The notes under the pieces were generated by a model, which was not told the DNA's origin, searched no databases, and was given only the letters and a program-made list of their open reading frames with translations. Position numbers and translations under genes: made by a program. Shown piece by piece: positions 2,466 through 14,854 of a stretch of 64,000 bases of DNA; position 1 is the stretch's first letter; each line of letters opens with the position of its first letter. The stretch covers positions 7,445 through 71,444 of the forward strand of contig JAQWTL010000002.1 of the NCBI GenBank assembly GCA_029242715.1, read 5' to 3'. The DNA is from Phycisphaerales bacterium. Its GTDB lineage: Bacteria > Planctomycetota > Phycisphaerae > Phycisphaerales > SM1A02.

Positions 2466-2991
2466 TGAATGAAGTCCTTATTCAGCAGCCATCAATACAA
2501 CTGAGCACCAAGATACCTGATGTGATCAGAACAAGATTGTCAGGCAGTTCAACCCGGCCTTTCAACTGCCTGATGGCGCAAGATAAGCCGTCAATCGTTG
2601 CACAGATTGAATCCACCTCCAGTGATCGAGCGGCAGAAGAAGGCCCGCAAAGTCATGGATCTGAACATCAGGTACAAAATTATGACGTCTGATTTCACCT
2701 GGATATCACTGGAATCCCCAGGAGAGACGGAACCCGCCACAAGCTTCAGCACGTCCATACTGGCTGGATAAATACTGAAATATCCGCAATATGTGAACCG
2801 TAGAACGCATTCTATGTGCCAGCCCTCAGAAAACCTCTTCCAACAGTCCTGAAGCAGGCATCAGGGGCAAGAAGCATTCCACTTGTGGGCTATAATCCGC
2901 GACCGTATTTCGTGGAAGAAATCGGCCCTGGCGCACCGGGCACCAAGCCTCTCAGCCAGGATTTCACCGGAAGACCATCGGGAGTTACAAG

Positions 2992-5169
2992 ATGATCAAG
3001 TCCCTCCTTTGCCCCGCTGCGATTACCGCAGCAGCATTGCTCACCCCTGCCCAGGCCATTGCGGAGAAACCCCGCCTGGCCATACAGGACATCACCGCGA
3101 CACCAGCCGTGATGAACAACGCCGTCTCTCAAGGCCAGGCCAACGTCCTGCAGCAGATCCTTCAAGGCGCAGACACCCAGTTGATGGACACGATCAACAG
3201 GACCAAGCGGTTTGACATCGTGGCGCGTTCGAAGATCAAAGCGATCCTGAAGGAACAGGAGATCGCTGATTCTGGTGATGTGAACCCAGCAGACCCTCAG
3301 ACTGCCAGGGCCTTCATGATGGCTGGCGCCAAGTACGTTGCCACCGTGACTGTCGACAATTACCAGGACATCGTCGAGAAGATGGTGATTCAGGGCGGCT
3401 TCGGTGCCGAAGAGCACGAACGACGCACGATTCAATTGCAGGCCGTTCTGCAGATCTTCGATACGACCACAGCCGTGATGCTCGAATCAGCTTCCATCAC
3501 GCTCAGTGAGAGTGACACCAACTCCATCATGGGCGGCGCACGCGAAACAGGCAACGCCACCAATGCACTCATCGGCGGCATGACCAAGACATTCGCTGCG
3601 AAAGCAGCCAACGTGATCATGAACCGCCTGGCTCCTGCCAAGATCATTGGCTACACGATGGGGAACATCACCTTCAATCGTGCAGAAGGCACGGGCGTGG
3701 AAGTCGGCCAGTACTGGCAGGTCTTCCATCCAGGTGAGGAGATGATCGACCCGGATACGGGCGAATCGCTGGGCTCAGAGGAGATCCCACTGGGCTGGGC
3801 CCGCGTCACCTCTGTGCATCCAAAGTTCTCCAAGGCCAGATGCGTCGAAGATTTCGGCATGGACCGTGGCAACATCATGCGGGAATCGCCTAATGGCCTG
3901 CCTTCCAATGTTGATCCCAACGGCAGTTGCAGCGGCTCAGCATCAAGCCCACCGGCACGGCCATCCGCCCCGGCAAGACCATCCGCCCCGGCACCACCCG
4001 TCTCACGTCCGAGTTCTCCACCACCGGCAGCTACGCCGAGTGCACCACCCGCAAGTGCGCCGAGCTATCCCGGTACCGCGAGACCTTCAGCTCCAACTGC
4101 AGCAGCCAATACAACCCCTGTCAAACTTGCCATGTTCGTCCGGGACGTAGCTCCCAATGTCGATGATCAGAAAGTTTCAGTCCTTGAGAGTTACATCACT
4201 TCCTGGCTGACAAACAACCAGATCCAGGTCATCAACAGAGCTGAACTGCTCAATGCTGTCAGTGGCCTTGCCAATGATGGTGCCAACGCCGGAACCGGTG
4301 ATCCGATGAACACCTATGCCGAGCGCATGCTCTCCGATCAGAGCTCGGCCGTGGCCCTGGCACGCAACATGGGCGCCGATGGCCTGATTGTCGCAACCAT
4401 CCAGTCACTGCAGGAAGATCGTCGGCAGATCCGCGATCCACAACGTGGCAACTACGACAACATCTTCTACACCCTGGACGTTGGCTGGAATGTTCTGGAT
4501 GGAGGTACCGGTGCAAGCGTCGCCTCGGGTATCGCCCAGGACCGTCAGGGGATTCGACAGACCGAAACACAGACCCGTACCTTCAATGTTGATCCACTTC
4601 TGCGTACCTGTGCTCAGCAGGTTGGAGAAGCCGTACAACGAGCAATGGCTCGTCCCGAGCGTCGCCCCATGACTGCTCAGGCAGCCGATGTCGGCGTCAT
4701 GATCGGGATCACCATGGAAGACATGAGTGTCCCTGAGATCACCAAGAACGCCGATGGCGAGTACATCATCGGTTCCAGCCAGTACCCCATGCAGCCAGTG
4801 ACCTGCAACGTCATGGTCGATGGGATGCTGGTGGGCAGTGCCCCGGGAACCCTGGATATCGCCCCAGGCCCCCATCGCATCAAGATCGAACATCCCAAGA
4901 TCGTGACCACCGAGAAGTTCATGGTCGTCAAGCCGGGCATGACGCTCACGATTCCAGTCGTCATGACGCGAGAAGCTCGACAGGAGTGGATGGAGAAGAC
5001 AGCCTTCTTCGAGAGCCTCAAGGATGGCGCTGTGCTTCGCGAAGCAGAACTTGAGAAGGCCAAGGGACTGGCCACCTTCATGCGTAACAGCAAGATCAAC
5101 TTCGATACATCGAATGTCACCACTCTGGGACTGGGCACACCAACCGTCTGGCACCAGTGGATTGACTGA
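2992..5169 (+). CDS. secreted protein with two CsgG/LpoB-like domains, a Pro/Ala/Ser-rich linker and a C-terminal PEGA-like domain
   Basis: Signal peptide (LLTPAQAIA). CsgG/LpoB-like block: LAIQDITA...LMDTINRTKRFDIVARSKIKAILKEQEIADSGDV...AGAKYVATVTVDNY. A second similar block: LAMFVRDVAP...QIQVINRAELLNAV...MGADGLIVATIQSL. The linker is SSPPARPSAPARPSAPAPPVSRPSSPPPAATPSAPPASAPS. PEGA-like segment: VMVDGMLVGSAPGTLDIAPGPHRIKIEHPKIVTTEKFMVVKPG. GGGAG RBS 7 nt upstream of the ATG. Confidence 0.65.
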   Translation: MIKSLLCPAAITAAALLTPAQAIAEKPRLAIQDITATPAVMNNAVSQGQANVLQQILQGADTQLMDTINRTKRFDIVARSKIKAILKEQEIADSGDVNPADPQTARAFMMAGAKYVATVTVDNYQDIVEKMVIQGGFGAEEHERRTIQLQAVLQIFDTTTAVMLESASITLSESDTNSIMGGARETGNATNALIGGMTKTFAAKAANVIMNRLAPAKIIGYTMGNITFNRAEGTGVEVGQYWQVFHPGEEMIDPDTGESLGSEEIPLGWARVTSVHPKFSKARCVEDFGMDRGNIMRESPNGLPSNVDPNGSCSGSASSPPARPSAPARPSAPAPPVSRPSSPPPAATPSAPPASAPSYPGTARPSAPTAAANTTPVKLAMFVRDVAPNVDDQKVSVLESYITSWLTNNQIQVINRAELLNAVSGLANDGANAGTGDPMNTYAERMLSDQSSAVALARNMGADGLIVATIQSLQEDRRQIRDPQRGNYDNIFYTLDVGWNVLDGGTGASVASGIAQDRQGIRQTETQTRTFNVDPLLRTCAQQVGEAVQRAMARPERRPMTAQAADVGVMIGITMEDMSVPEITKNADGEYIIGSSQYPMQPVTCNVMVDGMLVGSAPGTLDIAPGPHRIKIEHPKIVTTEKFMVVKPGMTLTIPVVMTREARQEWMEKTAFFESLKDGAVLREAELEKAKGLATFMRNSKINFDTSNVTTLGLGTPTVWHQWID

Positions 5170-5218
5170 ATATCACAACAATGTCTCTGGACATGGAACG
5201 AATCGGGAGAAAAACAAG

Positions 5219-6676
5219 ATGACAAGCAAGACCAGGAAAATCGCCATCCTTCTGCCAGCCTGTGCAGCATTGCTTTGCGCAACCGCCTGCCAGTCGGGCT
5301 ATCGCAATCATGCCAAGACCGTTGATACGTCCTATCGATCCGGCAACTACCAGCAGGCGGCGTCTGTTGCGAAGACAGGTGCCGACACACGAGCCTCTGA
5401 TGAATCTGAACGCGTGATCTATCACCTCGAGGCTGCTCGCACCGCCCAGGTTGCCGGCGACTACGAGATCAGCACGATCCATTACGAAGCCGCCTATGAG
5501 GATGTCCGTCCCTTCCTGGATACCGATTCTGAAGACACGATCCGTGAAGCACTCGCCACAACGGCTGTCAACCAGGCGATGCGTACCTACAAGAGCACCC
5601 CGGGTGAGCGAATCATGATGAATTCGATGAACTCACTGAACTACCTGGCCATGGGCGACCGTGATGCCGCCAGGCTCGAGTTGAACCGCGCCGGAGACTG
5701 GCAGCAGGATGCCGTCCTGCGTGAAGAAGCCAGAATCATGGCCGAGCAACAGGCCATCGAAGCCGATGCCAAGAAGAACAACGTAGAAGGTGCTGCCAAG
5801 GGCGACGTTCCTTCGAATATGAAGTCCTACTACTCCAATCTGGACAACATGAGCAGCTACGCGGATTACGAGAATCCTTTCACCAGTCACCTTCGTGGCA
5901 TCTACCTGATGACCAATGGGACCGATGATGGCGATCGATCCAATGCACGACTCGATCTTCGTAAAGCCGTACAGACGAATCCCAACTGTGAGCCCGCGTT
6001 GAGAGAAGACCTCATGGTCCTCGAGAATTCACAACGCCATGCCCTTCCACCCACGACCTGGGTCTACTTCATGACCGGTCGAGCAGCGTATTACGAGGAA
6101 CTTGAAATCACCGTACCCATCCCGGTCAGTGAAGTTCCGACTGCTACAGCTGCATTCCCGGTTCTCAAGACCAATGAAGACCACCTTCGCTATCTTGAAA
6201 TCGACACGGATGAAGCTGGTACGGTTCGCTCCGTTGAACTGGCCGACATCGACGGCGTTGTCGCAACAGATTTCCGCAATCGCCTGCCCGTCATCATCGG
6301 ACAGGAACTTGCCAGTACAGCTGCCAAAGCCGCTGCCACCTACGGACTCAGTGAAGGCCTTGGCGACTGGGGCACCGCACTGGGAACCATGTATCAGACT
6401 GGCACAGCCGAGGCTGACCTGAGGGCCTGGCGGACCATGCCCAAGGAAGTCCAGGTCTGTCGCGTACCCACGCCAGCCAACGGCAAGATCAGACTCATGG
6501 GTGCTGGTGGCCGCTCTTTGGGAACCGTCAATGTGATTCCCAATCAGAGCAATATCGTCGTCGTCACCATGCCATCGGCCATGGCCATGAGCCCCTCGAT
6601 CATGACCGCTCCTCTGACAGGCCCCATGCCCCAGAAAACCCCCAGGATGGCCAGTGAGAACGCGCAAGGCGTCTGA
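5219..6676 (+). CDS. lipoprotein with TPR-like N-terminal region (possibly COG3014-type)
   Basis: Internal ATG of track ORF 5024..6676, chosen because it opens a lipoprotein signal (MTSKTRKIAILLPACAALLCATAC) just after the upstream stop. Helical-repeat-like N-terminus (GNYQQAASVA..., LEAARTAQVAGDYEISTIHYEAAYEDV, LNYLAMGDRDAARLELNRA). The COG3014 assignment is from memory and tentative. Confidence 0.5.
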   Translation: MTSKTRKIAILLPACAALLCATACQSGYRNHAKTVDTSYRSGNYQQAASVAKTGADTRASDESERVIYHLEAARTAQVAGDYEISTIHYEAAYEDVRPFLDTDSEDTIREALATTAVNQAMRTYKSTPGERIMMNSMNSLNYLAMGDRDAARLELNRAGDWQQDAVLREEARIMAEQQAIEADAKKNNVEGAAKGDVPSNMKSYYSNLDNMSSYADYENPFTSHLRGIYLMTNGTDDGDRSNARLDLRKAVQTNPNCEPALREDLMVLENSQRHALPPTTWVYFMTGRAAYYEELEITVPIPVSEVPTATAAFPVLKTNEDHLRYLEIDTDEAGTVRSVELADIDGVVATDFRNRLPVIIGQELASTAAKAAATYGLSEGLGDWGTALGTMYQTGTAEADLRAWRTMPKEVQVCRVPTPANGKIRLMGAGGRSLGTVNVIPNQSNIVVVTMPSAMAMSPSIMTAPLTGPMPQKTPRMASENAQGV

Positions 6677-6748
6677 TCTGGAGCGTCTCCAGTTCGTACC
6701 AGGAGCCCTTCCATTGGGCCCCAGGATCATCCAATCAAGGAGTTGTCC

Positions 6749-7723
6749 ATGCCCATACGCCTCATCCTGACCACCCTCCTGCTGGCCGCCACGGTCACCT
6801 GGACCGGCTGTGGCCCCAAGACCCGCACCGGCAGCCAGATGAAACCCATCAACAATGCCCACACTCTGACGGCCACTGAATGGGACCAGTTCGCCAACTG
6901 GATGAAGAACTCCATGATCCAGAGCGGTGTGCTTGGCCGGTATCGCCAGGCCGATGGTGGCCCCACCGTGGTCGCGATTGCTGACTGGGACAACAACACC
7001 CGTCAGAAGGTCTTCGACAAGGACAAGGTCGTGATGGAGAACGCCATACGCAAGACGCTGGTGAACTCCGGACAGGCTGTGATCAATCGTGATATCGGTG
7101 GCACAGGAGCCAAGGCCGAAGGCCTGACACGGGATATCAGCGGACTGCGTGAGTCCAGTGAATACGACCAGTCGACGACAACGCGGCCAGGTCTCGCCCC
7201 AGCCCCCTCCCTGGGTCTGTACATGCAGATCAACAGGGTGGAATTCAGCGAAGGGCGGACCACCCAGTACGACTACGTGATCCAATGTGAACTGATCGAT
7301 CTTCAGGCCAAACATACGGTCTGGGAAGATCAGTTCATGCTCAGCAAACAGTTCGTCCGAGCCATCATGGCAGCCCCACGCAACACCATCTCGACCAGGT
7401 CTGTTCCGGGAGATGATCGAGTTGGACCAGAAAGACTCAATGGTGTCCTCAAGGGCATCTCGCTTTCCTGCAGCGAAGTCCGGTTGTTCCCCACCAGAGG
7501 TGGGCCACTGGAAGGCCAGGTCGATATTGTCAATACGAGTTCAAGCCCGAAACGATTCGCTTACAAGTTCAAATGGCTGGATGAACGCGGCAACGTCATC
7601 CGGACACAAATTTCAACATGGATTCCTGCTAACGTGACCGGTGGTGGCTCCACCACGATCACCTCGGTAGCCCCATCTGAAGAAGCCACCGACTTCACAC
7701 TTGAAGTTCAACGATCAAACTGA
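6749..7723 (+). CDS. lipoprotein: LpoB-like domain fused to YcfL/DUF1425-like domain
   Basis: ATG at 6749 sits 6 nt after AAGGAG. Lipobox TVTWTGC. LpoB-like block: WDQFANWMKNSMIQSGVLGR...VVAIADWDNNTRQKVFDKDKVVMENAIRKTLVNSGQAVI. C-terminal YcfL-like block: LEGQVDIVNTSSSPKRFAYKFKWLDERGNVIRTQISTWIPANVTGGGSTTITSVAPSEEATDFTLEV. Confidence 0.55.
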   Translation: MPIRLILTTLLLAATVTWTGCGPKTRTGSQMKPINNAHTLTATEWDQFANWMKNSMIQSGVLGRYRQADGGPTVVAIADWDNNTRQKVFDKDKVVMENAIRKTLVNSGQAVINRDIGGTGAKAEGLTRDISGLRESSEYDQSTTTRPGLAPAPSLGLYMQINRVEFSEGRTTQYDYVIQCELIDLQAKHTVWEDQFMLSKQFVRAIMAAPRNTISTRSVPGDDRVGPERLNGVLKGISLSCSEVRLFPTRGGPLEGQVDIVNTSSSPKRFAYKFKWLDERGNVIRTQISTWIPANVTGGGSTTITSVAPSEEATDFTLEVQRSN

Positions 7724-7775
7724 CTTTCAAACCAATGTCATGAAGGCCTGTCAAAGGGCCAATCGGAGACACATC

Positions 7776-8375
7776 ATGCACAAATCAATGCTTGCCATAC
7801 CCATGGCTGCCATCATCGCAACAGGCCTTGCCGGCTGTGGAGGCCAGAAGGCCACCTACATTGAAACTGGCGGAACACAGTCCATCGTCAGTGTCGGCGA
7901 AGTCGACATCCAGGACATCCAGAAAGCCTCCTCGGGCATGATCAACTCGATGCTGGCTACTGGTGTGCTCAAGCGAGCTCCCCATCAACCAGCTCGACTT
8001 GTCATCGACAAGGTCGTCAATGACACCAGCAGTCGATTTGATACCGGCGAACTGCTCTACCGGATGCGTGAACAACTCGTGAACTCAGGCCAGGCACAGG
8101 TCGAAGGCGCCTACGGAGGCAACGCTGAGACTCAGGTCGCCCAGAATGAGATGAAACGCGACGCATTCCTCAATGGCAAGTCGGCTGCAGATGTCTTTGA
8201 TCCTGACTTCTCACTCACCGGCAAGATCTCACAGATCAAGCGTTCAGCAGGCAAGGTCCGTCAAACGACCTATACCTTCCGACTGACCCTCTTTGATATC
8301 AGGAATGGCCGCGAAGTCTGGACGAAGACCGTTGACATGACCAAGCAGGGCACGAAGTCATCCGTTGGCTTCTGA
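7776..8375 (+). CDS. LpoB-like (COG3417-type) lipoprotein
   Basis: Internal ATG of track ORF 7701..8375, giving the lipoprotein signal MHKSMLAIPMAAIIATGLAGC. LpoB-like core: IQDIQKASSGMINSMLATGVLKRAPHQPARLVIDKVVNDTSSRFDTGELLYRMREQLVNSGQAQV. Confidence 0.6.
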   Translation: MHKSMLAIPMAAIIATGLAGCGGQKATYIETGGTQSIVSVGEVDIQDIQKASSGMINSMLATGVLKRAPHQPARLVIDKVVNDTSSRFDTGELLYRMREQLVNSGQAQVEGAYGGNAETQVAQNEMKRDAFLNGKSAADVFDPDFSLTGKISQIKRSAGKVRQTTYTFRLTLFDIRNGREVWTKTVDMTKQGTKSSVGF

Positions 8376-8405
8376 TTCTTCCTGACACATTGTTCGATTG
8401 AATCC

Positions 8406-8442
8406 CCAGGGGCCCGGCAGTAGTCGGGCCCCTGGTCTTTTT
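8406..8442 (+). terminator. Rho-independent terminator closing the lipoprotein operon
   Basis: Perfect 11-bp GC-rich stem CCAGGGGCCCG / CGGGCCCCTGG with an 8-nt loop, followed by TCTTTTT. Located 30 nt after the stop at 8375. Confidence 0.7.
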
Positions 8443-8664
8443 ATGCACACATGTCAGCAGTCCCGCATGTTGTCCACAGGGCAAGTGTTGCCCCCCTTTA
8501 ACACATAACGATTTCGATTTTCAACAATCCAACTGCCCACATCCCCTGAAATGCTCTCCTAAAGCTACCCTTCGGTCTTGCTGGATCCAACGGCTACCAG
8601 GCAACCTGTGGGAGATGTCATCCTGAGCCACCTGGTCCCGAAGTGATCCCTGGGAGACAAACAC

Positions 8665-9735
8665 ATGCAGACATTCACCAAGATCATTGCTGGCGTTGCC
8701 ACTGCGACCGTCATGACCGCAACCACTGCCCTGGCCGGAACTCCCGACCAGGCAACTGCCATGAAACATCTGGCTTCCTACATCGGTTCCTGGGAAACAT
8801 CAGGCACGACGACGGATGCCTTTCCGAACCTGCCTGCTGGCGTTGAATACACCGAAGTCACCGAGTACCGATGGAACGGTGAAATGGATACGGTTGTTTC
8901 AAACTGGAAGATGAGCACGAAGAAGGGACAGGTCCTGTCCATGGGCACCGGCATGCTCACATGGAGCGACGATCACAAGACCCTGGTACTTGAATACACG
9001 GGCCAGGACAAAGGAACTCCTTTCCATGGCAGTGCGACACTGAGCAAGTTGACCGAGAACGCCAGCTCATGGCAATGTTATGAGCAAGATGCCAAGGGAA
9101 CTCAGATCTGGTATCTCTCAACCGACACATTCCCGAATGGTCCCGGCAACAGCTGGTCCTCCTCCATGCAATCCTGTGACAGCAACTGGCAGCCAACTGG
9201 AGACACTGAGACCAGCAGCATGAGCCGCGTGAACATGTTCACCAAGCACTGTGGGCCTATTGCAGACATGATCGGTACCTGGACATGGAAGACCAAGGAT
9301 GATGCCGGAACACCGATGACCAAAACCAATACCTATGAATGGGGACCAGGCAAACGGTCAATCATGTGTCGCTTCTATGAGACACGTAACGGCGAAACGA
9401 CCCTGATGGCCTGTGAGACGATGTATTCCACAGAAGATGGCAAGGGCATTCGTGGCAACTACTGGAACAACAAGGGCGGCAACATTGACTGGCTCATCAC
9501 CGAGATGACAGAAAATGGATCCAATGCCCATTGGTCAAGCAACTTCTGGGGCAATTCGGCAGATGGAACACCCATCAGTGGTGAGATCACTGGACATATG
9601 ACAAACGCCAACCAGTTCAATTACAACATTGTCAGGATGAATTACGGCGGAACCGACATGCCCACCGAAGGGATGAATCCTGAAAATCGTCTTTTCAAAC
9701 GGACAAGCACCATGGCAACTGTGCCAACAAACTGA
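8665..9735 (+). CDS. secreted hypothetical protein with an internally duplicated domain
   Basis: Signal peptide (TATTALAGTP). GGGAGA RBS upstream. Both halves open with an IGxW motif (YIGSWETSG..., MIGTWTWKT...). The gene is bracketed by two strong terminators. The family is uncertain; it looks DUF1579/lipocalin-like by eye only. Confidence 0.5.
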   Translation: MQTFTKIIAGVATATVMTATTALAGTPDQATAMKHLASYIGSWETSGTTTDAFPNLPAGVEYTEVTEYRWNGEMDTVVSNWKMSTKKGQVLSMGTGMLTWSDDHKTLVLEYTGQDKGTPFHGSATLSKLTENASSWQCYEQDAKGTQIWYLSTDTFPNGPGNSWSSSMQSCDSNWQPTGDTETSSMSRVNMFTKHCGPIADMIGTWTWKTKDDAGTPMTKTNTYEWGPGKRSIMCRFYETRNGETTLMACETMYSTEDGKGIRGNYWNNKGGNIDWLITEMTENGSNAHWSSNFWGNSADGTPISGEITGHMTNANQFNYNIVRMNYGGTDMPTEGMNPENRLFKRTSTMATVPTN

Positions 9736-9761
9736 ACAAGACGTCACTGGTTTCAATATAG

Positions 9762-9800
9762 ACAAGGGCGGCCCATTGGGGCCGCCCTTGTTCGTTCTTT
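9762..9800. terminator. bidirectional Rho-independent terminator between convergent genes
   Basis: Perfect 13-bp stem ACAAGGGCGGCCC / GGGCCGCCCTTGT with a 4-nt loop ATTG, then TCGTTCTTT on the + strand. It lies between the stops at 9735 (+) and 9813 (-). Confidence 0.7.
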
Positions 9801-9812
9801 CACTGGCCATGC

Positions 9813-11135
9813 TCAGCAGTCGCCGAGCGTCAACCATAAGAAGTAGTCTTTCACATTGACCACGCCGTCTTCATTCAGGTCGTACTTGCTGCTATCGCCC
9901 TTCTTGACGGGGCCAAGGTTATAGAAGATCAATAGAAGATCTCGCTTGTCGACCAGACCATCACCATTCAAGTCAGCGGGGCAAGGCTCGCAATCGATGA
10001 ATTCATTATTTATCAGATCACGCCAATCGCCATCAACCTGTTCAAGGCTATTGCACTCGAACAGATCGTCACGTGATTTCGCGATGGCACTGCCTTCGGC
10101 GTAGAGCGCGCCACCTGATACATCCGCAATGTTCTCGATGTACTGATTGTTGGTCGAGTAGAAGACCCACGCATCCTTGTCATTGCCACGAACGTGCACA
10201 GCACCACCCGTACCTAAATCGTTGGCCGCCATATGACCTGCCTGCTCAGCACGATTTCCGTTGAATACACAATCAGTGATCCAGATGCGATCCATCAATT
10301 GTGAATAGACCGCACCACCTCGGAGTACTTGGGGCTGAGGCTGCCCAGGAACGCCGCTGACCACGTTGGATTCAAATTCGCAACGCAAAAGACGAAGCGT
10401 CCCCTTCTTGGTGGCGATCGCGCCGCCACTGGCTTCCGATGGGATTTGGAAATGATCCCGATCATAATCCCTCACATGAAGGTAGTTGCCGGAGAATTCA
10501 CAATCCGTCAACTCCAATTCAGAGTCAAAGGAGTTGATCGCACCACCTCGAACAATATGCGTAATGGCATCCGCACGCTCCCAACTCACACCGCAATCCC
10601 GGAAAAGACATCCGAGAAAAGATGCCGAGCTTTCATAGATATTGATCGCGCCAACGGATCGTGACCCAGCGGGCTGATCTTCATCATCAGTGTACTGAGA
10701 CTGGATATCGATGAATCTACAGTTGATAAAACGGGCATTGACCTGAGAAAAATCCAGGCCATCCTTGAAGCCTTCACCATGTAGACCGGCTCCCGCAAAT
10801 GTCAGATTCTGAAATGTGATTGTTATGGAGCGATCACGACAGAAATTATTCAACATGAAATGGTGGTTGGTCGCATCGGTCTTGATCACGGTGCGCTCCG
10901 CATACACACCTGACCCACGAAGAGTCACGTTGTCACAGAGTGAAACAAGGATCTTCTGGTTGTACTCGCCTGCCTCAAGCCAGACGGTCGACCCTTCAAC
11001 GGCTCGTCTCAATGCTGGAGCAATCGATCTGCCCCGGTCATCAACCGATACAAACTCATCTGCAAAGGTCGGAAGAGCGCAGACGCACATGCTGAGAACG
11101 GTAAAAATCGCCTTCTGAGAAGGTGAGAGATTCAT
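9813..11135 (-). CDS. secreted right-handed beta-helix repeat protein with C-terminal dockerin-like domain
   Basis: Start moved to the ATG giving signal MNLSPSQKAIFTVLSMCVCALPTFA, with AAGGA about 8 nt upstream. Periodic beta-helix-like repeats (ITFQNLTFAGAG, RFINCRFIDI, FLGCLFRDCG, LTDCEFSGN, LLRCEFESN, ITDCVFNGN). C-terminus: DLNGDGLVDKRDLLLIF...DLNEDGVVNVKDYFLWLTLGDC. Confidence 0.65.
   Translation of the reverse strand: MNLSPSQKAIFTVLSMCVCALPTFADEFVSVDDRGRSIAPALRRAVEGSTVWLEAGEYNQKILVSLCDNVTLRGSGVYAERTVIKTDATNHHFMLNNFCRDRSITITFQNLTFAGAGLHGEGFKDGLDFSQVNARFINCRFIDIQSQYTDDEDQPAGSRSVGAINIYESSASFLGCLFRDCGVSWERADAITHIVRGGAINSFDSELELTDCEFSGNYLHVRDYDRDHFQIPSEASGGAIATKKGTLRLLRCEFESNVVSGVPGQPQPQVLRGGAVYSQLMDRIWITDCVFNGNRAEQAGHMAANDLGTGGAVHVRGNDKDAWVFYSTNNQYIENIADVSGGALYAEGSAIAKSRDDLFECNSLEQVDGDWRDLINNEFIDCEPCPADLNGDGLVDKRDLLLIFYNLGPVKKGDSSKYDLNEDGVVNVKDYFLWLTLGDC
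9816..9983 (-). other. dockerin-like double EF-hand module ending in GDC
   Basis: CPADLNGDGLVDKRDLLLIFYNLGPVKKGDSSKYDLNEDGVVNVKDYFLWLTLGDC. It contains two DxNxDGxVxxxD Ca-loop-like segments. Confidence 0.6.
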
Positions 11136-11255
11136 GGTCTTTATCCTTGGTATTGCGCGGGTACGCGAGAAACGCCCCATCGAGCCCCACTATTCCGTTC
11201 GGGCCCCCGTGTGACACGAAACCCCCGGAATTGGACAAAGTCGCTTTGGAAGGGC

Positions 11256-12566
11256 TCAGGAACCGGGTTTACAGCAGCCTGCAGGCCGCTTGCCAGCCTT
11301 CTCCGCATCCGCGACTGAATCGTATTTCACTCGATTCTTCTCGGAGATCCGCTTGGCATTACCGCAACCTGCCTTGTGGAACACCTGACTTCGAGAGGAT
11401 GCCACGTAACCACCAGGATCCGCTGCTTCGCTTCCCTTTGACTCACCCTTCCCGCTGGAACCACTGGCTTTTTTCGTTGGAGTAGACCTCTTTACAGGCG
11501 AAGCCTTGAGCGCTCTGGACATGGCAGAACGAGGCCAAGGCTTTGCCTCGACACTGCCGCCCTGGCCTTCCATGGGAACAAGGTCAATGGCCAGTGGGTA
11601 ATGATCTGATGCATAGCCAGGAGGTATCGGATCGTTTCTCCAGTCATAGTCTTCAGCAGATGTCCCAAGAATGAAGCCGCTGCCATTGACCATTTCTCCA
11701 GAAGCAGCGTGGTTGAGCAGGATGAAGTCGATGAGTCTGCCCGAAGTGTGCGTGGTTCGAAGTGGTGAAGCATCGTCATGACCCAGACTGTGATTACGCA
11801 GCGTCATGGCATCAAGCATGCCGCCTCGGAAGTAGACCTGCATGGAGCGATCCCATGGCTGTGCATTGAAATCTCCCAGAACGATGATATTGCGATCTGG
11901 ATCACGCAGGTTCATTTCACCGACGTACTTCATGATCTGCAAAGCCTCTGCCTCGCGATGCCACCTGTTGTAACCAGCCTTGTGGTGAACGATGAACAGA
12001 GTGAGCTCATAACCATCAGGTGTAGTGACAGTAGCGCAAAGCGGGCTGCGCTGAAAACTCACCTCATTCATTCCCTCTGGAACCTCATCCCATCCCCCGC
12101 CAGTCCTGACGACCCTGGTCAGATCTGCCGATGGCCAGGTCTTGACTTCCGAAATCGGAAAGCGACTCAACAAGCTCTGCTCGATCCCACGGTAATAACC
12201 GACATCCTTTGATGCGATGTGGTTGTATCCCATGTCGGCGAGGTAATTGTCACGGAACCATGCCAAGGCCGCCTCGGATTCAACTTCCTCCAGGGCCAGG
12301 ATGTCTGCATCAATTGCCCGTATGACACGAGCCAGTTCCCGACATCTTTCATCTGAACTGGGCCCTGGGTTGTCACCAAAATCGTCGTAGTCACCCTGCA
12401 GGGATGGATCATCCGTCTGATCGAAAAAGTTCAACATGTTGTAACTGGCCAACCGAACCGTTCCATCGAGCCGAGGCATCGGTTCGCTCAGACCGAACTT
12501 GTGGTGCGGAGAGGGAGCCAGAAGCAACATGACAAGCATTGCAAGTGTGTAGAGCATGCCTGCCAT
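11256..12566 (-). CDS. endonuclease/exonuclease/phosphatase (EEP) family protein with C-terminal Ada-like Zn-binding motif
   Basis: EEP motifs: VRLASYNMLNFFD, ADILALEEV, IVLGDFN, SDHYPL. C-terminus: VFHKAGCGNAKRISEKNRVKYDSVADAEKAGKRPAGCCKP, which resembles the Ada metal-binding domain. The start is uncertain: the track uses a TTG at 12620, and I prefer ATG 12566, which gives MAGMLYTLAMLVMLLLAPSP. Confidence 0.7.
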   Translation of the reverse strand: MAGMLYTLAMLVMLLLAPSPHHKFGLSEPMPRLDGTVRLASYNMLNFFDQTDDPSLQGDYDDFGDNPGPSSDERCRELARVIRAIDADILALEEVESEAALAWFRDNYLADMGYNHIASKDVGYYRGIEQSLLSRFPISEVKTWPSADLTRVVRTGGGWDEVPEGMNEVSFQRSPLCATVTTPDGYELTLFIVHHKAGYNRWHREAEALQIMKYVGEMNLRDPDRNIIVLGDFNAQPWDRSMQVYFRGGMLDAMTLRNHSLGHDDASPLRTTHTSGRLIDFILLNHAASGEMVNGSGFILGTSAEDYDWRNDPIPPGYASDHYPLAIDLVPMEGQGGSVEAKPWPRSAMSRALKASPVKRSTPTKKASGSSGKGESKGSEAADPGGYVASSRSQVFHKAGCGNAKRISEKNRVKYDSVADAEKAGKRPAGCCKPGS

Positions 12567-12616
12567 AGTAGCGAACGACGGATGGTATTTTCCCCGGGCT
12601 ACAGGGAAGAACGGCT

Positions 12617-14854
12617 TCAAGCTGGCGTGGGCAGCCCCTCGACGATCCCATTGAGGGTTTCACTCGGCCGCATGGCCTTGGAAGCCTTCTCCGGATCAGG
12701 CTGGTAATACCCACCAACATCCATCGCCGGCCCTTGGACCCCATTGAGCTCAGCAATGATGGCATCTCGGCCGGATTCCATCGCACTGGCAATGGGACCA
12801 AACATCGATGCCAGTTCCGCATCCTGACCCTGCTCGGAGAGCGATCGCGCCCAAGCAGTTGCCAGATGAAAATGACTGCCACGATTGTCGAGTTCACCAC
12901 ATTTTCGCGACGGAGAATGATTCTGCATCAGATAGTCGGTTGTTGCCTGATCGAGAGTCTCGGAAAGCAATTTGGCCCGCTCATTGTCGAATCGGTCGGC
13001 GAGGTGCTCAAGAGAAGCTGCCAGAGCCATGTACTCTCCCAGGGAGTCCCAACGCAAGTGGTTCTCCTTCATGAACTGCTGAACATGCTTGGGGGCCGAA
13101 CCTCCTGCTCCCGTTTCAAAGAGTCCCCCACCATTCATGAGCGGGACGATGGACAACATCTTTGCACTGGTTCCTACTTCAAGAATCGGGAAGAGATCAG
13201 TGAGGTAGTCACGAAGCACGTTTCCTGTTACGGAAATCGTGTCTTCTCCACGACGGATTCGTTCAAGAGTGAACCGGGTCGCCTTGATGGGCGACATGAT
13301 GTGAAACTCCAATCCCTCGACGTCCTGCTCAGCAAGATAACGATCGACCTTGGCAACCAGTTGAGAATCATGGGCTCTCGTTCGATCCAGCCAGAAGACC
13401 GCAGGTTTACTGGTTGCACGAGCCCTTGAGATTGCCAGATTGACCCAGTCACGGATCGGAGCATCCTTGGTCTGACATGCACGCCAGATATCTCCGGCCT
13501 CTACATCATGCTCCAGAAGAACCTCTTCCTTGCCAGTCAGAATGCGAACCTTGCCATCAGAGGCAATCTCGAATGTCTTGTCATGAGAACCGTATTCTTC
13601 GGCCTTCTGAGCCATGAGTCCCACGTTGGGAACACTTCCCATGGTCGTAGGGTCATAAGCGCCATTCGCCTTGCAATCATCGATCACTGCCTGGTAAACA
13701 CCGGAGTAACTGCTGTCTGGAATGACTGCGACGGTGTCTTGAGTATCGCCCTCTGCATTCCACATGCAGCCCGATGTCCTGATCATGGCTGGCATGGACG
13801 CATCGATGATCACATCACTTGGCACGTGAAGGTTGGTAATTCCCTTGTCCGAATCAACCATCGCAAGCTGTGGACCACTCGAATAAACAGATTGAATGTC
13901 CGCTTCAATGGTCTCACGAGTTGCTTCGGGAAGCTCCTGGATCTTGGAAAGCAGATCACCGAAACCATTATTAACGTCTACACCAATTGAGTTGAAGACG
14001 TCCCCATGCTTTTCAAAGAGAGATTTGAAGAAAACACGAACGGCATGGCCGAAGATGATCGGATCTGAAACCTTCATCATCGTCGCCTTCATGTGCAAGG
14101 AGAACAGGATGCCTCGATCTTGAGCCAGCTTGATCTGATCTTCGAGAAACGAAACCAGTGCCTTGTGGCTCATGAAACTGGCATCAATGACTTCGCCCGC
14201 CAGGAGATCAAGAGAATCCTTGAGAACCGTCACGGTGCCATCTGTTGCAACATGCTCGATACGCACAGTTGCCGCATCCGTCATCGTGAGCGACTTCTCG
14301 TTGTTCCTGAAATCACCCTCGGACATGGTCGTCACGTCAGTCTTGCTGTCAGCAGACCAAGCCCCCATGGAGTGGGGATGAGCACGTGCATATTCCTTCA
14401 CAGCCTTCGGGGCTCGTCGGTCTGAATTACCCTGCCTGAGAACAGGGTTCACCGCACTACCCTTGACAGAGTCATATCGAGCTTTCACATCGTGCTCTTC
14501 GTCACTGGACGGTTCTTCCGGGTAGTCAGGAAGGTCGTATCCCTGCTTCTTCAACTCGGAAATGGCCGCCTTGAGCTGCGGAACTGATGCGCTGATATTG
14601 GGCAACTTGATGATGTTGGCCGCTGGTGTCTCTGCCATCAGACCCAGTTCCGCAAGTGCATCGTCTACACGCTGTGCCGCTTCCAACCGCTCAGGAAAGT
14701 GAGCGAGGATGCGACCTGCAAGCGAGATGTCACGCGTTTCAATCGCGATTCCAGCAGATTCACAGAAGGCACGAATGACCGGGAGGAATGCGTAGGTAGC
14801 CAGCGCTGGAGCTTCATCGGTGTGGGTGTAGATGATCGTGGGAGTTTCGGACAT
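12617..14854 (-). CDS. icd: isocitrate dehydrogenase (NADP+), monomeric type
   Basis: About 745 aa. It starts [30 protein letters not shown] and continues with ...[15 protein letters not shown]..., ...[18 protein letters not shown]..., ...[19 protein letters not shown]... This is the characteristic monomeric IDH. The track start at 14914 is an upstream TTG; the in-frame ATG is 20 codons later. Confidence 0.9.

What the first reader, a model, noticed from the sequence alone, without database searches (positions are those of the whole stretch)
2992..8442. Four-gene envelope lipoprotein operon combining CsgG/LpoB-fold, possible COG3014-like, LpoB-like and YcfL-like modules in a Planctomycetota-like genome
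Seen: four same-strand genes with short gaps (49, 72 and 52 nt). All have signal peptides or lipoboxes, and one strong terminator (8406-8442) closes the set.

Content:
- a 725-aa protein with two CsgG/LpoB-like domains, a Pro-rich linker and a PEGA-like domain
- a TPR-like lipoprotein
- an LpoB-like+YcfL-like fusion
- a stand-alone LpoB-like lipoprotein

Established: E. coli lpoB (ycfM) sits next to ycfL, and LpoB activates PBP1B. CsgG forms an outer-membrane channel. To my recollection, COG3014/COG3417/COG5633 genes co-occur as an uncharacterised triad in several Proteobacteria.

Inference: this is an expanded version of that conserved but functionally unresolved envelope module. It lies in a lineage whose peptidoglycan and outer-membrane biology is atypical. 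No PBP gene is adjacent.
Basis: partly seen in the sequence, partly recalled or inferred. Interest (0 to 1): 0.6.

Follow-up and report, generated by a model that had tools for sequence, protein, structure and literature searches.

The report
Conserved envelope lipoprotein operon, LpoB-YcfL type
This is a real four-gene operon for exported cell-envelope proteins, a Planctomycetota version of the little-studied Campylobacter cj0089-cj0090-cj0091 lipoprotein trio joined to a FlgT/CsgG-like protein. The genome has no class A penicillin-binding protein, so its "LpoB-like" proteins cannot do the job LpoB does in E. coli.

Summary
There are four same-strand genes: g1 2992-5169, g2 5219-6676, g3 6749-7723 and g4 7776-8375. 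The gaps are 49, 72 and 52 nt, each ATG has a GGAG-type ribosome site, all four products have export signals, and one strong terminator follows (8406-8442).

- g2 is a full-length homologue of C. jejuni Cj0089 and H. pylori HP0018 (hhalign E 2e-45).
- The C-terminal domain of g3 is DUF1425/YcfL, like Cj0090 (PDB 4GIO).
- g4 and the N-terminal domain of g3 belong to PF13036, like Cj0091.
- g1 has a CsgG-superfold domain whose best structural match is the flagellar ring protein FlgT. It also has a PEGA domain.

The order g2-YcfL-LpoB recurs in 12 of 20 diverse Planctomycetota loci (g2 next to LpoB in 17), usually with CsgG-like neighbours. C. jejuni has the same order. E. coli keeps only ycfL-lpoB.

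Two fusions are confined to part of the Phycisphaerae. g3 is LpoB::YcfL, and g1 is a FlgT-like half joined to a PEGA half.

The genome has no GT51 glycosyltransferase and no UB2H domain, so PBP1B activation is excluded. The most likely role is an outer-membrane-anchored periplasmic scaffold that couples the outer membrane to peptidoglycan remodelling. That role is inferred, not shown. Earlier agents of this scan found the same module in other genomes.

The parts
2980..2984 (+). Shine-Dalgarno-like GGGAG, 7 nt before the g1 ATG
   Evidence: Read directly from the sequence.
2992..5169 (+). g1: 725-aa exported multidomain protein with an SPase-I signal and no conserved lipobox Cys. It is a FlgT/CsgG-superfold protein fused to a PEGA-containing half.
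   Evidence: ORF. Pfam CsgG and PEGA. Homologues are named 'CsgG/HfaB family'. AF2 model pLDDT 71.7. Foldseek best hits are FlgT 3w1e at E 6e-13 over 300 columns, then GNA1162, HpaA, CsgG and PelC.
3073..3630 (+). g1 domain 1 (aa 28-213): CsgG/FlgT-M-like alpha/beta domain
   Evidence: Pfam CsgG at 47-188, E 1.4e-8. AF2 secondary structure. Foldseek.
3637..3885 (+). g1 domain 2 (aa 216-298): small beta domain, FlgT-C-like
   Evidence: AF2. FlgT_C hit in a neighbouring-locus relative. The same domain occurs in a C. jejuni ORF two genes downstream of cj0091 (hhalign prob 88, E 3e-6).
3889..4116 (+). g1 Pro/Ser/Ala-rich disordered linker (aa ~300-375)
   Evidence: Sequence. pLDDT below 50 for residues 319-373.
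4120..4650 (+). g1 domain 3 (aa 377-553): second alpha/beta domain with the same strand/helix order as domain 1
   Evidence: AF2 topology only. hhalign against domain 1 is not significant (E 0.033). It is a separate gene, together with PEGA, in L028 and L029.
4690..5088 (+). g1 PEGA beta-sandwich (aa 567-656) and long C-terminal helix (aa 660-699)
   Evidence: Pfam PEGA at 605-658, 24.5 bits against a cut-off of 20.8. AF2.
5219..6676 (+). g2: 485-aa lipoprotein of the Cj0089/HP0018 family. It has an N-terminal TPR-like helical domain (aa ~30-270) and a C-terminal beta domain with a helical hairpin (aa ~279-465).
   Evidence: hhalign against Cj0089, E 2.2e-45. BLASTP E 1e-26. AF2 pLDDT 87, pTM 0.88. 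Foldseek finds only generic TPR hits at E >= 0.013. The family has 5756 cluster representatives.
6749..7723 (+). g3: 324-aa lipoprotein, a fusion of an LpoB-like domain (nt 6887-7333) and a DUF1425/YcfL Ig-like domain (nt 7472-7711)
   Evidence: Pfam. The N-domain is 78% identical to the stand-alone LpoB-like gene on contig C22. The C-domain matches PDB 4GIO (Cj0090) at E 1.6e-4. The fusion is also present in L008 but absent in L009 and L010.
7776..8375 (+). g4: 199-aa lipoprotein (LAGC lipobox), PF13036 LpoB-family, orthologue-like to Cj0091
   Evidence: Pfam LpoB E 3e-22. 33% identity over the full length to Cj0091, E 5e-19. TIGR02722 equivalog scores 80.3 bits, below the 110.55 cut-off.
8406..8442 (+). 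Intrinsic terminator closing the operon
   Evidence: 13-bp stem with 11 GC pairs and a T-run. dG -32.1, z -5.3.

Best explanation
The four genes are one operon. It encodes an exported envelope protein set that is the Phycisphaerae form of a widespread module. That module is a TPR lipoprotein (Cj0089/HP0018 family), a YcfL/DUF1425 Ig-like protein and an LpoB-family lipoprotein, in that order, here preceded by a FlgT/CsgG-superfold periplasmic protein carrying a PEGA domain.

Shown here:
- homology of every part
- the conserved gene order across Planctomycetota and in Campylobacter
- two fusions confined to part of the Phycisphaerae (g1 halves; LpoB::YcfL in g3)
- complete absence of class A PBPs and UB2H from the genome

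Inferred:
- The three lipoproteins are anchored in the outer membrane.
- Together with the soluble g1 they build a periplasmic scaffold under the outer membrane. Proteins of this fold, such as FlgT, CsgG and PelC, typically form rings.
- The scaffold couples the outer membrane to the peptidoglycan layer. It may do so by positioning or restraining peptidoglycan-remodelling enzymes (amidases, lytic transglycosylases) or the SEDS-class B PBP synthases.
- It does not work by activating a PBP1B-type enzyme.
For: Operon anatomy.

Homology:
- g2 against Cj0089.
- g3 C-domain against Cj0090/4GIO (the identity of 4GIO comes from PMC7857515).
- g4 against Cj0091.
- Cj0090 is PF07233 and Cj0091 is PF13036.

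Synteny:
- L008-L010 have different flanks.
- In 12 of 20 diverse Planctomycetota loci the order is g2-YcfL-LpoB, and in 17 of 20 g2 lies next to LpoB. CsgG-family genes lie next to the trio in 9.
- A distant relative of g2 sits next to an LpoB gene.

Family breadth: 140 of 301 Planctomycetota genomes and 59 of 101 Campylobacterota genomes have a match. There are 5756 cluster representatives.

In this genome every PF13036 match and every PF03783 match lies in this operon or in one paralogous cluster on contig C22.

No class A PBP:
- No GT51 and no UB2H in the own genome.
- tblastn with E. coli PBP1B gives a best E of 4.7.
- 34 of 36 module-bearing Planctomycetota genomes lack GT51.
- SEDS proteins and class B PBPs are present.

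Scaffold idea:
- The best fold match of g1 is FlgT, including the cryo-EM LPHT ring.
- Deleting hp0018 in H. pylori gives chains of outer-membrane vesicles and altered cell shape. HP0018 co-precipitates with AmiA and MltD (PMC11394524).
- Cj0091 is outer-membrane associated (PMC3100323).
Against:
- The functional data come from distant Campylobacterota homologues (24-33% identity). The AmiA/MltD partners there are only co-IP candidates.
- The g1 model is of moderate confidence (pLDDT 71.7, pTM 0.42), and oligomerisation is not shown.
- Outer-membrane sorting rules for Planctomycetota lipoproteins are not established.
- Three distant g2 relatives (L045-L047) had no detectable YcfL or LpoB neighbour with my small HMMs.
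Confidence: 0.6

Rival explanations
1. Canonical LpoB function. The LpoB-like lipoproteins reach across the periplasm and activate a peptidoglycan synthase, as E. coli LpoB activates PBP1B through its UB2H domain. A variant is that they activate a class B PBP/SEDS pair instead.
For: PF13036 matches are above cut-off. The module's LpoB profile aligns with the E. coli LpoB globular domain (hhalign prob 86, E 5e-6). YcfL precedes LpoB in E. coli as well. SEDS proteins and class B PBPs exist in the genome.
Against: - The genome has no GT51 and no UB2H domain, and the same holds in 34 of 36 module-bearing Planctomycetota genomes.
- The TIGR02722 equivalog cut-off is not reached.
- The profile against LpoB structures in the PDB gives only E 0.011.
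- The linker between the lipid Cys and the globular domain is about 20 residues, against about 55 in E. coli LpoB.
- The class B PBP variant is untested.
Confidence: 0.12
2. g1 is a CsgG/HfaB-type outer-membrane channel, and the operon is a secretion and assembly system for an extracellular fibre or polymer (curli-like, holdfast-like or Pel-like).
For: Pfam CsgG is above cut-off. Databases name g1 homologues 'CsgG/HfaB family'. CsgG and PelC are among the Foldseek hits.
Against: - g1 has no conserved lipobox Cys.
- Its long strands are rich in charged residues (sequence).
- The best and longest fold match is FlgT, which is not a channel.
- There is no CsgF in the genome.
- No substrate-like gene is conserved next to the module, and flanks differ between relatives.
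Confidence: 0.1
3. The module forms a collar around another trans-envelope machine (flagellum, pilus or secretion system), as the FlgT/FlgP/FlgO rings do around the Vibrio flagellar motor.
For: FlgT is the top structural match. FlgT_M and FlgT_C hits occur in neighbouring-locus relatives and in the C22 paralogue. HP0018-sfGFP forms foci at poles and lateral sites (PMC11394524).
Against: No flagellar, pilus or secretion genes are conserved beside the module in any locus examined. Flagellated cells of the H. pylori hp0018 mutant kept what appeared to be a normal flagellar sheath (PMC11394524).
Confidence: 0.13
4. The lipoproteins are surface adhesins, as proposed for Cj0091 in C. jejuni.
For: The cj0091 mutant adheres less to INT 407 cells and colonises chicks less well (PMC3100323).
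Against: The host is a free-living marine-type Phycisphaerales bacterium (source names). The module is conserved across free-living Planctomycetota. The adhesion defect can be an indirect envelope effect. The fold relatives are periplasmic.
Confidence: 0.05

Closest known systems
Campylobacter jejuni cj0089-cj0090-cj0091 lipoprotein operon (Oakland et al. 2011, PMC3100323), with H. pylori HP0018 / HP0444 / HP1457 (PMC11394524)
   Same: The three families occur in the same order on one strand: a TPR lipoprotein of ~450-485 aa, a DUF1425 Ig-like protein and a ~200-aa PF13036 lipoprotein. Function is unresolved in both. A protein sharing g1's second domain lies two genes downstream of cj0091.
   Different: Here a 725-aa FlgT/CsgG-like plus PEGA protein leads the operon. 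YcfL is fused behind an extra LpoB-like domain. The host phylum is Planctomycetota and lacks class A PBPs. Identities are only 24-33%.
E. coli ycfL-lpoB gene pair; LpoB as outer-membrane activator of PBP1B
   Same: A DUF1425 gene lies directly before a PF13036 lipoprotein gene. The globular domains are homologous (hhalign E 5e-6).
   Different: E. coli K-12 has no Cj0089-family gene. The window's genome has no PBP1B, GT51 or UB2H. g4 has a short linker. g3 and g4 fall below the LpoB equivalog cut-off.
Vibrio FlgT (flagellar H-ring; PDB 3W1E, cryo-EM LPHT ring 8Z5N)
   Same: Best structural match to the N-terminal half of g1 (E 6e-13, about 300 aligned columns). Both are signal-peptide periplasmic proteins, not lipoproteins.
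   Different: There is no flagellar gene context. g1 carries an extra Pro-rich linker, a second alpha/beta domain, a PEGA domain and a C-terminal helix. Sequence identity is about 14%.
CsgG curli channel / PelC / GNA1162 (CsgG-TolB-N-LpoB superfold lipoproteins)
   Same: The fold is shared, and the Pfam CsgG match is above cut-off.
   Different: g1 has no lipid anchor. No CsgE/F-type partner was found (CsgF was searched). There is no evidence for membrane hairpins.

Membership tests
   hhalign of A2 against Cj0089: prob 100, E 2.2e-45, 433 columns. BLASTP E 1e-26. The lipobox Cys is conserved.
   PF07233 at 63.7 bits against a cut-off of 28.3. PDB 4GIO (Cj0090) at E 1.6e-4. Here it is a domain of g3, not a separate gene.
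   g4 scores 79.5 bits against PF13036. It is 33% identical to Cj0091 over the full length.
   No COG library was available. A text search for the COG numbers returned nothing useful.
LpoB, activator of PBP1B (NCBIfam TIGR02722 equivalog) | Score above the equivalog cut-off | tested here: not met
   g4 scores 80.3 bits and g3 scores 54.1 bits, against a cut-off of 110.55.
LpoB, activator of PBP1B (NCBIfam TIGR02722 equivalog) | Cognate class A PBP with a UB2H docking domain in the same genome | tested here: not met
   PF14814 has 0 matches. PF00912 has 0 matches. tblastn with E. coli MrcB gives a best E of 4.7. The genome is 96.7% complete.
LpoB, activator of PBP1B (NCBIfam TIGR02722 equivalog) | Long disordered linker (about 50 residues) between the lipid anchor and the globular domain | tested here: not met
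   The globular alignment starts at g4 residue ~43 (Cys21) but at E. coli LpoB residue ~75.
LpoB, activator of PBP1B (NCBIfam TIGR02722 equivalog) | PF13036 globular domain | tested here: met
   hhalign to E. coli LpoB E 5e-6.
CsgG curli secretion channel | PF03783 domain | tested here: met
   34.7 bits against a cut-off of 20.8. It covers model positions 27-167 of 210.
CsgG curli secretion channel | N-terminal lipid anchor | tested here: not met
   No conserved Cys follows the signal peptide in 48 homologues. The cleavage motif is AQA|IAE.
CsgG curli secretion channel | CsgE/CsgF partners and a curlin substrate | tested here: not met
   CsgF (PF10614) is absent from the genome. Flanking genes show no curli families. 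CsgE and curlin repeats were not searched genome-wide.
CsgG curli secretion channel | Membrane-spanning beta-hairpins forming a barrel in an oligomer | tested here: inconclusive
   The monomer AF2 model shows three ~20-residue strands with many charged residues. No oligomer model was possible.
FlgT (flagellar H-ring protein) | FlgT-M plus FlgT-C domain architecture | tested here: met
   Foldseek 3w1e at E 6e-13 over 300 columns. FlgT_M and FlgT_C Pfam hits occur in relatives. Those Pfam hits are below cut-off, so the resemblance is structural only.
FlgT (flagellar H-ring protein) | Flagellar gene context (flgO/flgP, LP-ring genes) | tested here: not met
   No flagellar genes occur in the window flanks or in any related locus.

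The most novel reading that the evidence does not exclude
The TPR-YcfL-LpoB trio with FlgT-like partners is an ancient outer-membrane-anchored periplasmic ring or lattice that spans several phyla. It coordinates the outer membrane with peptidoglycan remodelling. In bacteria that build their wall with SEDS/class B PBPs only, it may be a main outer-membrane-to-wall coupling device. Enterobacterial LpoB would then be a late offshoot of this module, recruited to PBP1B. The ycfL-lpoB pair in E. coli would be a reduced remnant.
Probability: 0.3. Interest if true: 0.65.

Novelty: new variant of a known kind. Interest (0 to 1): 0.45.

Why it matters
Databases annotate LpoB-family proteins as 'penicillin-binding protein activator'. 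This genome has four LpoB-like domains and no class A PBP, and 34 of 36 other module-bearing Planctomycetota genomes lack a GT51 domain. For most of this family that annotation therefore cannot describe the function.

The module is common. It is present in about half of the sampled Planctomycetota and Campylobacterota genomes. It is tied to envelope integrity in H. pylori and has no known mechanism.

Planctomycetota have a reduced wall-synthesis toolkit, so they give a clean background in which to ask what the trio and its FlgT-like partner do. That question bears on how diderm bacteria coordinate the outer membrane with the cell wall, and on how LpoB evolved.

Tried and rejected
- A second word-index search with the g2 alignment found no new relatives.
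I therefore reached C. jejuni through the 4GIO sequence instead.
- A profile search of g2 against PDB sequences gave nothing. Foldseek of the g2 model gave only generic TPR hits at E >= 0.013, so the C-terminal domain of g2 has no solved relative.
- g4 alone finds no PDB sequence.
- Sequence comparison of g1 domain 1 with domain 3, and of either with the LpoB profile, is not significant. The 'two CsgG-like domains' claim rests on predicted topology only.
- The g1 profile against the two CsgG-like proteins of the C22 locus is not significant. Those are not orthologues of g1.
- UB2H in Campylobacter genomes gave only sub-threshold hits inside a ~660-aa ORF. This is inconclusive for that lineage.
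- The promoter scan found nothing above chance.
- Adhesin and curli-channel readings were considered and ranked low (see rivals).

Full report
**Observation.** The window carries four + strand ORFs: 2992-5169 (g1, 725 aa), 5219-6676 (g2, 485 aa), 6749-7723 (g3, 324 aa) and 7776-8375 (g4, 199 aa). The gaps are 49, 72 and 52 nt. Each ATG is preceded at 7-10 nt by GGAG, GGGAG or AAGGAG. The only strong terminator-like structure on this strand is at 8406-8435 plus its T-run. It has 13 pairs, dG -32.1 kcal/mol and z -5.3, and none of 200 shuffles folded as well. No promoter-like site stands out above chance. Upstream lies a 526-nt divergent spacer.

All four products start with export signals. g1 has an AQA|IAE signal-peptidase-I site and no conserved Cys. 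g2, g3 and g4 each have a Cys after the hydrophobic stretch. That Cys is at least 90% conserved in the g2 family and invariant in the LpoB-like alignment.

**Domain content.** Pfam gives the following, all above the curated cut-offs:
- g1: CsgG at residues 47-188 and PEGA at 605-658.
- g3: LpoB at 47-195 and DUF1425 (the YcfL family) at 242-321.
- g4: LpoB at 47-184.

g2 has no family hit apart from sub-threshold TPR matches. NCBIfam's LpoB equivalog TIGR02722 matches g4 (80.3 bits) and g3 (54.1 bits), but both are below the 110.55-bit cut-off.

**What g2 is.** Close homologues of g2 are all from Phycisphaerae or Planctomycetota and are unnamed. A profile search of 1.84 billion cluster representatives shows a large family. 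It has 5756 representatives at E <= 1e-3 and 1122 at E <= 1e-30.

The AlphaFold model is confident (pLDDT 87, pTM 0.88). It shows an N-terminal TPR-like helical domain and a C-terminal beta domain with a long helical hairpin. No solved structure resembles the whole protein; there are only generic TPR hits at E >= 0.013.

I reached a named reference through g3. The YcfL-like domain of g3 matches PDB 4GIO (E 1.6e-4), which is C. jejuni Cj0090 (PMC7857515). Using that sequence I fetched C. jejuni loci. They contain a 453-aa lipoprotein (Cj0089), the 122-aa Cj0090 and the 207-aa Cj0091, in that order (sizes agree with PMC3100323).
- The g2 family profile aligns with Cj0089 over 433 columns with probability 100 and E 2.2e-45.
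- Pairwise BLASTP gives 24% identity and E 1e-26.
- g4 is 33% identical to Cj0091 over the full length, E 5e-19.
- Pfam puts Cj0090 in DUF1425 and Cj0091 in LpoB.

The operon contains the same trio, in the same order, as cj0089-cj0090-cj0091.

**Conservation.** Relatives of g2 on long contigs show the same unit with unrelated flanks.
- L008 (65% identity) has the identical four genes, including the fusion.
- L009 and L010 (41-45% identity) have CsgG+PEGA, g2, a stand-alone 135-137-aa DUF1425 gene and LpoB.
- A very distant member (20% identity) lies directly after an LpoB gene.

The g2 profile matches 140 of 301 sampled Planctomycetota genomes, in 110 of 238 genera. It also matches 59 of 101 Campylobacterota genomes, with full-length hits.

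Twelve have g2 followed by YcfL and LpoB on the same strand. In 17 of the 20, g2 lies next to an LpoB gene (in one of these LpoB is upstream). Nine also have a g1-related or CsgG-family gene beside the trio. Pfam confirms CsgG, LpoB, FlgT_M and FlgT_C signatures in those neighbours.

In two genomes (L028, L029) g1 is split into two genes. The PEGA half comes first and the CsgG-like half second. The 725-aa g1 is thus a fusion that is common in Phycisphaerae (76 homologues of ~700-790 aa).

E. coli K-12 has ycfL directly before lpoB but no member of the g2 family. The same profile rang in other phyla.

**The g3 fusion and a second locus.** The genome has exactly four PF13036 matches and two PF03783 matches. 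All are in this operon or in one cluster on contig C22. My own HMM scan of all six-frame ORFs agrees.

The C22 cluster reads as follows:
- a stand-alone YcfL;
- a stand-alone LpoB-like gene;
- a 723-aa protein with a C-terminal LpoB/FlgT_M/CsgG-like domain;
- a CsgG+DUF4384 protein.

The N-terminal domain of g3 is 78% identical to the C22 LpoB-like protein but only 26% identical to g4. The YcfL domain of g3 is only 31% identical to the C22 YcfL. So g3 arose when a copy of the C22-type LpoB-like gene, with its lipoprotein signal, was joined to the operon's own YcfL gene. The YcfL signal peptide was lost in the process; the HMM match to YcfL starts at model position 19.

**g1.** The AlphaFold model has pLDDT 71.7, and pTM is low, as expected for a protein of several domains joined by flexible linkers. 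It shows these parts:
- an alpha/beta domain with three long strands (residues 28-213);
- a small beta domain (216-298);
- a disordered Pro-rich linker (~300-375);
- a second alpha/beta domain with the same order of elements (377-553);
- a PEGA beta-sandwich (567-656);
- a long helix (660-699).

Foldseek's best hits are Vibrio FlgT (3W1E, E 6e-13, 300 columns) and the FlgT chain of the LPHT ring (8Z5N). GNA1162, HpaA, CsgG, LptE and PelC follow. These share the CsgG/TolB-N/LpoB superfold, and several of them form rings under the outer membrane.

The second alpha/beta domain is not detectably similar to the first by sequence (E 0.033).

g1 has no lipid anchor, its long strands are rich in charged residues, and the genome has no CsgF. 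I therefore read it as a FlgT-like periplasmic scaffold protein and not as a curli-type channel.

A 400-aa C. jejuni ORF two genes downstream of cj0091 shares g1's second domain (prob 88, E 3e-6). This hints that the link between the trio and a FlgT-like protein is old.

**Is this LpoB in the functional sense?** E. coli LpoB works by docking on the UB2H domain of the class A enzyme PBP1B. The evidence against that role here is as follows.
- The genome is 96.7% complete and has no UB2H match and no GT51 glycosyltransferase match at all.
- tblastn with E. coli MrcB finds nothing better than E 4.7.
- The genome does have two SEDS proteins and two class B transpeptidases, so it makes peptidoglycan without class A PBPs.
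- Of 36 Planctomycetota genomes with a strong g2 homologue, 34 lack GT51. These include several closed genomes of 99-100% completeness.
- The module's LpoB-like profile is only marginally similar to the LpoB chains in the PDB (E 0.011). hhalign does confirm homology of the globular domain (E 5e-6).
- The linker from the lipid Cys to the globular domain is about 20 residues, against about 55 in E. coli LpoB.

Family membership at the Pfam level is met. Membership in the LpoB equivalog, the PBP1B activator, is not.

**How it most likely works.** It is shown that the four genes form a conserved co-directional unit, that all products are exported, and that three carry lipoprotein signals. The rest is inferred. 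I propose that the lipoproteins sit in the outer membrane and, with soluble g1, form a periplasmic scaffold, possibly a ring. This scaffold would link the outer membrane to the wall and position or restrain wall-remodelling enzymes.

The inference rests on two things. One is the fold relatives FlgT, CsgG and PelC. The other is the only functional data on homologues:
- Deleting hp0018 in H. pylori gives chains of outer-membrane vesicles and less helical cells.
- HP0018-sfGFP forms foci, and HP0018 co-precipitates with AmiA and MltD (PMC11394524).
- Cj0091 is outer-membrane associated, and its loss reduces adherence and colonisation (PMC3100323).

I put 0.6 on the combined statement. Identity of the module is near certain, and the mechanism is roughly even odds. 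The rivals are listed separately: activation of a synthase other than a class A PBP, a CsgG-type secretion channel, a collar around another envelope machine, and an adhesin.

**Comparison and novelty.** The closest known system is the cj0089-91 operon with its Helicobacter counterparts. E. coli ycfL-lpoB is a reduced form. The literature on the trio is thin. Text searches returned only the Campylobacter and Helicobacter papers and nothing on its spread across phyla.

New here are the Planctomycetota setting without class A PBPs, the leading FlgT-like/PEGA fusion protein and the LpoB::YcfL fusion. I rate it a new variant of a known kind.

Earlier agents of this scan have described the same module in other Planctomycetota, Verrucomicrobiota and Kiritimatiellota genomes, with the same closest-known system. 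A first-reader note flags the g3 fusion in this genome. These notes agree with my reading but are not independent evidence. They do mean that this instance adds detail, not a new kind of system.

**Limits.** No COG library was available. The g1 model is of moderate confidence. Lipoprotein sorting in Planctomycetota is not established.

Noticed in passing
L005 (own genome, contig C22:108000-126000), about 9095-13450: A second, partial paralogous cluster. It holds a stand-alone YcfL (133 aa), an LpoB-like lipoprotein 78% identical to the g3 N-domain, a 723-aa protein with a C-terminal LpoB/FlgT_M/CsgG-like domain, and a CsgG+DUF4384 protein. It has no Cj0089-family gene. By eye, the upstream genes look like MotA/ExbB, ExbD and TonB relatives and a sigma/anti-sigma pair; only the putative sigma ORF was put through Pfam (no hit). 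Two pairs of small similar exported proteins (2367-2780 with 13550-13957; 3747-4391 with 13954-14397) bracket the region.
   Followed up: partly
whole genome G000, and 36 Planctomycetota genomes: There is no GT51 (PF00912) domain anywhere in this 96.7%-complete genome, although SEDS proteins and class B PBPs are present. 34 of 36 other module-bearing Planctomycetota genomes also lack GT51.
   Followed up: yes
L011 (C. jejuni) 6309-7343 and 7350-8552: Downstream of cj0091 lie a DUF6844 protein (344 aa) and a 400-aa protein. The 400-aa protein has a weak LptE-like hit and shares g1's second (FlgT-C-like) domain (hhalign prob 88, E 3e-6). The Campylobacter operon may therefore have a FlgT-like companion too.
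   Followed up: partly
L028 2536-4767 and L029 2586-4797: In one Planctomycetota family, the equivalent of g1 is two separate genes in swapped order. The domain 3 + PEGA half comes first and the CsgG-like half second, directly upstream of the trio.
   Followed up: partly
L036 (G138:C2) 4968-8518: Two tandem copies of the Cj0089-family gene with identical scores (E 2.2e-79 each) precede YcfL and LpoB. This is a local duplication of the TPR lipoprotein.
   Followed up: no
window 8665-9735: A 356-aa exported protein with no Pfam family follows the operon after a 290-nt spacer. A gene of similar size (352 aa) occupies the corresponding position in the closest relative (L008), though its similarity was not checked. 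Nothing comparable follows the operon in L009 or L010, so it is not part of the module.
   Followed up: partly
L039 1654-3606: A 651-aa neighbour of the trio in another Planctomycetota genome combines CsgG, FlgT_C-like, Ig-like (Big_7, Big_13) and glucodextranase-B-like domains. The FlgT-like partner is modular and variable between lineages.
   Followed up: no
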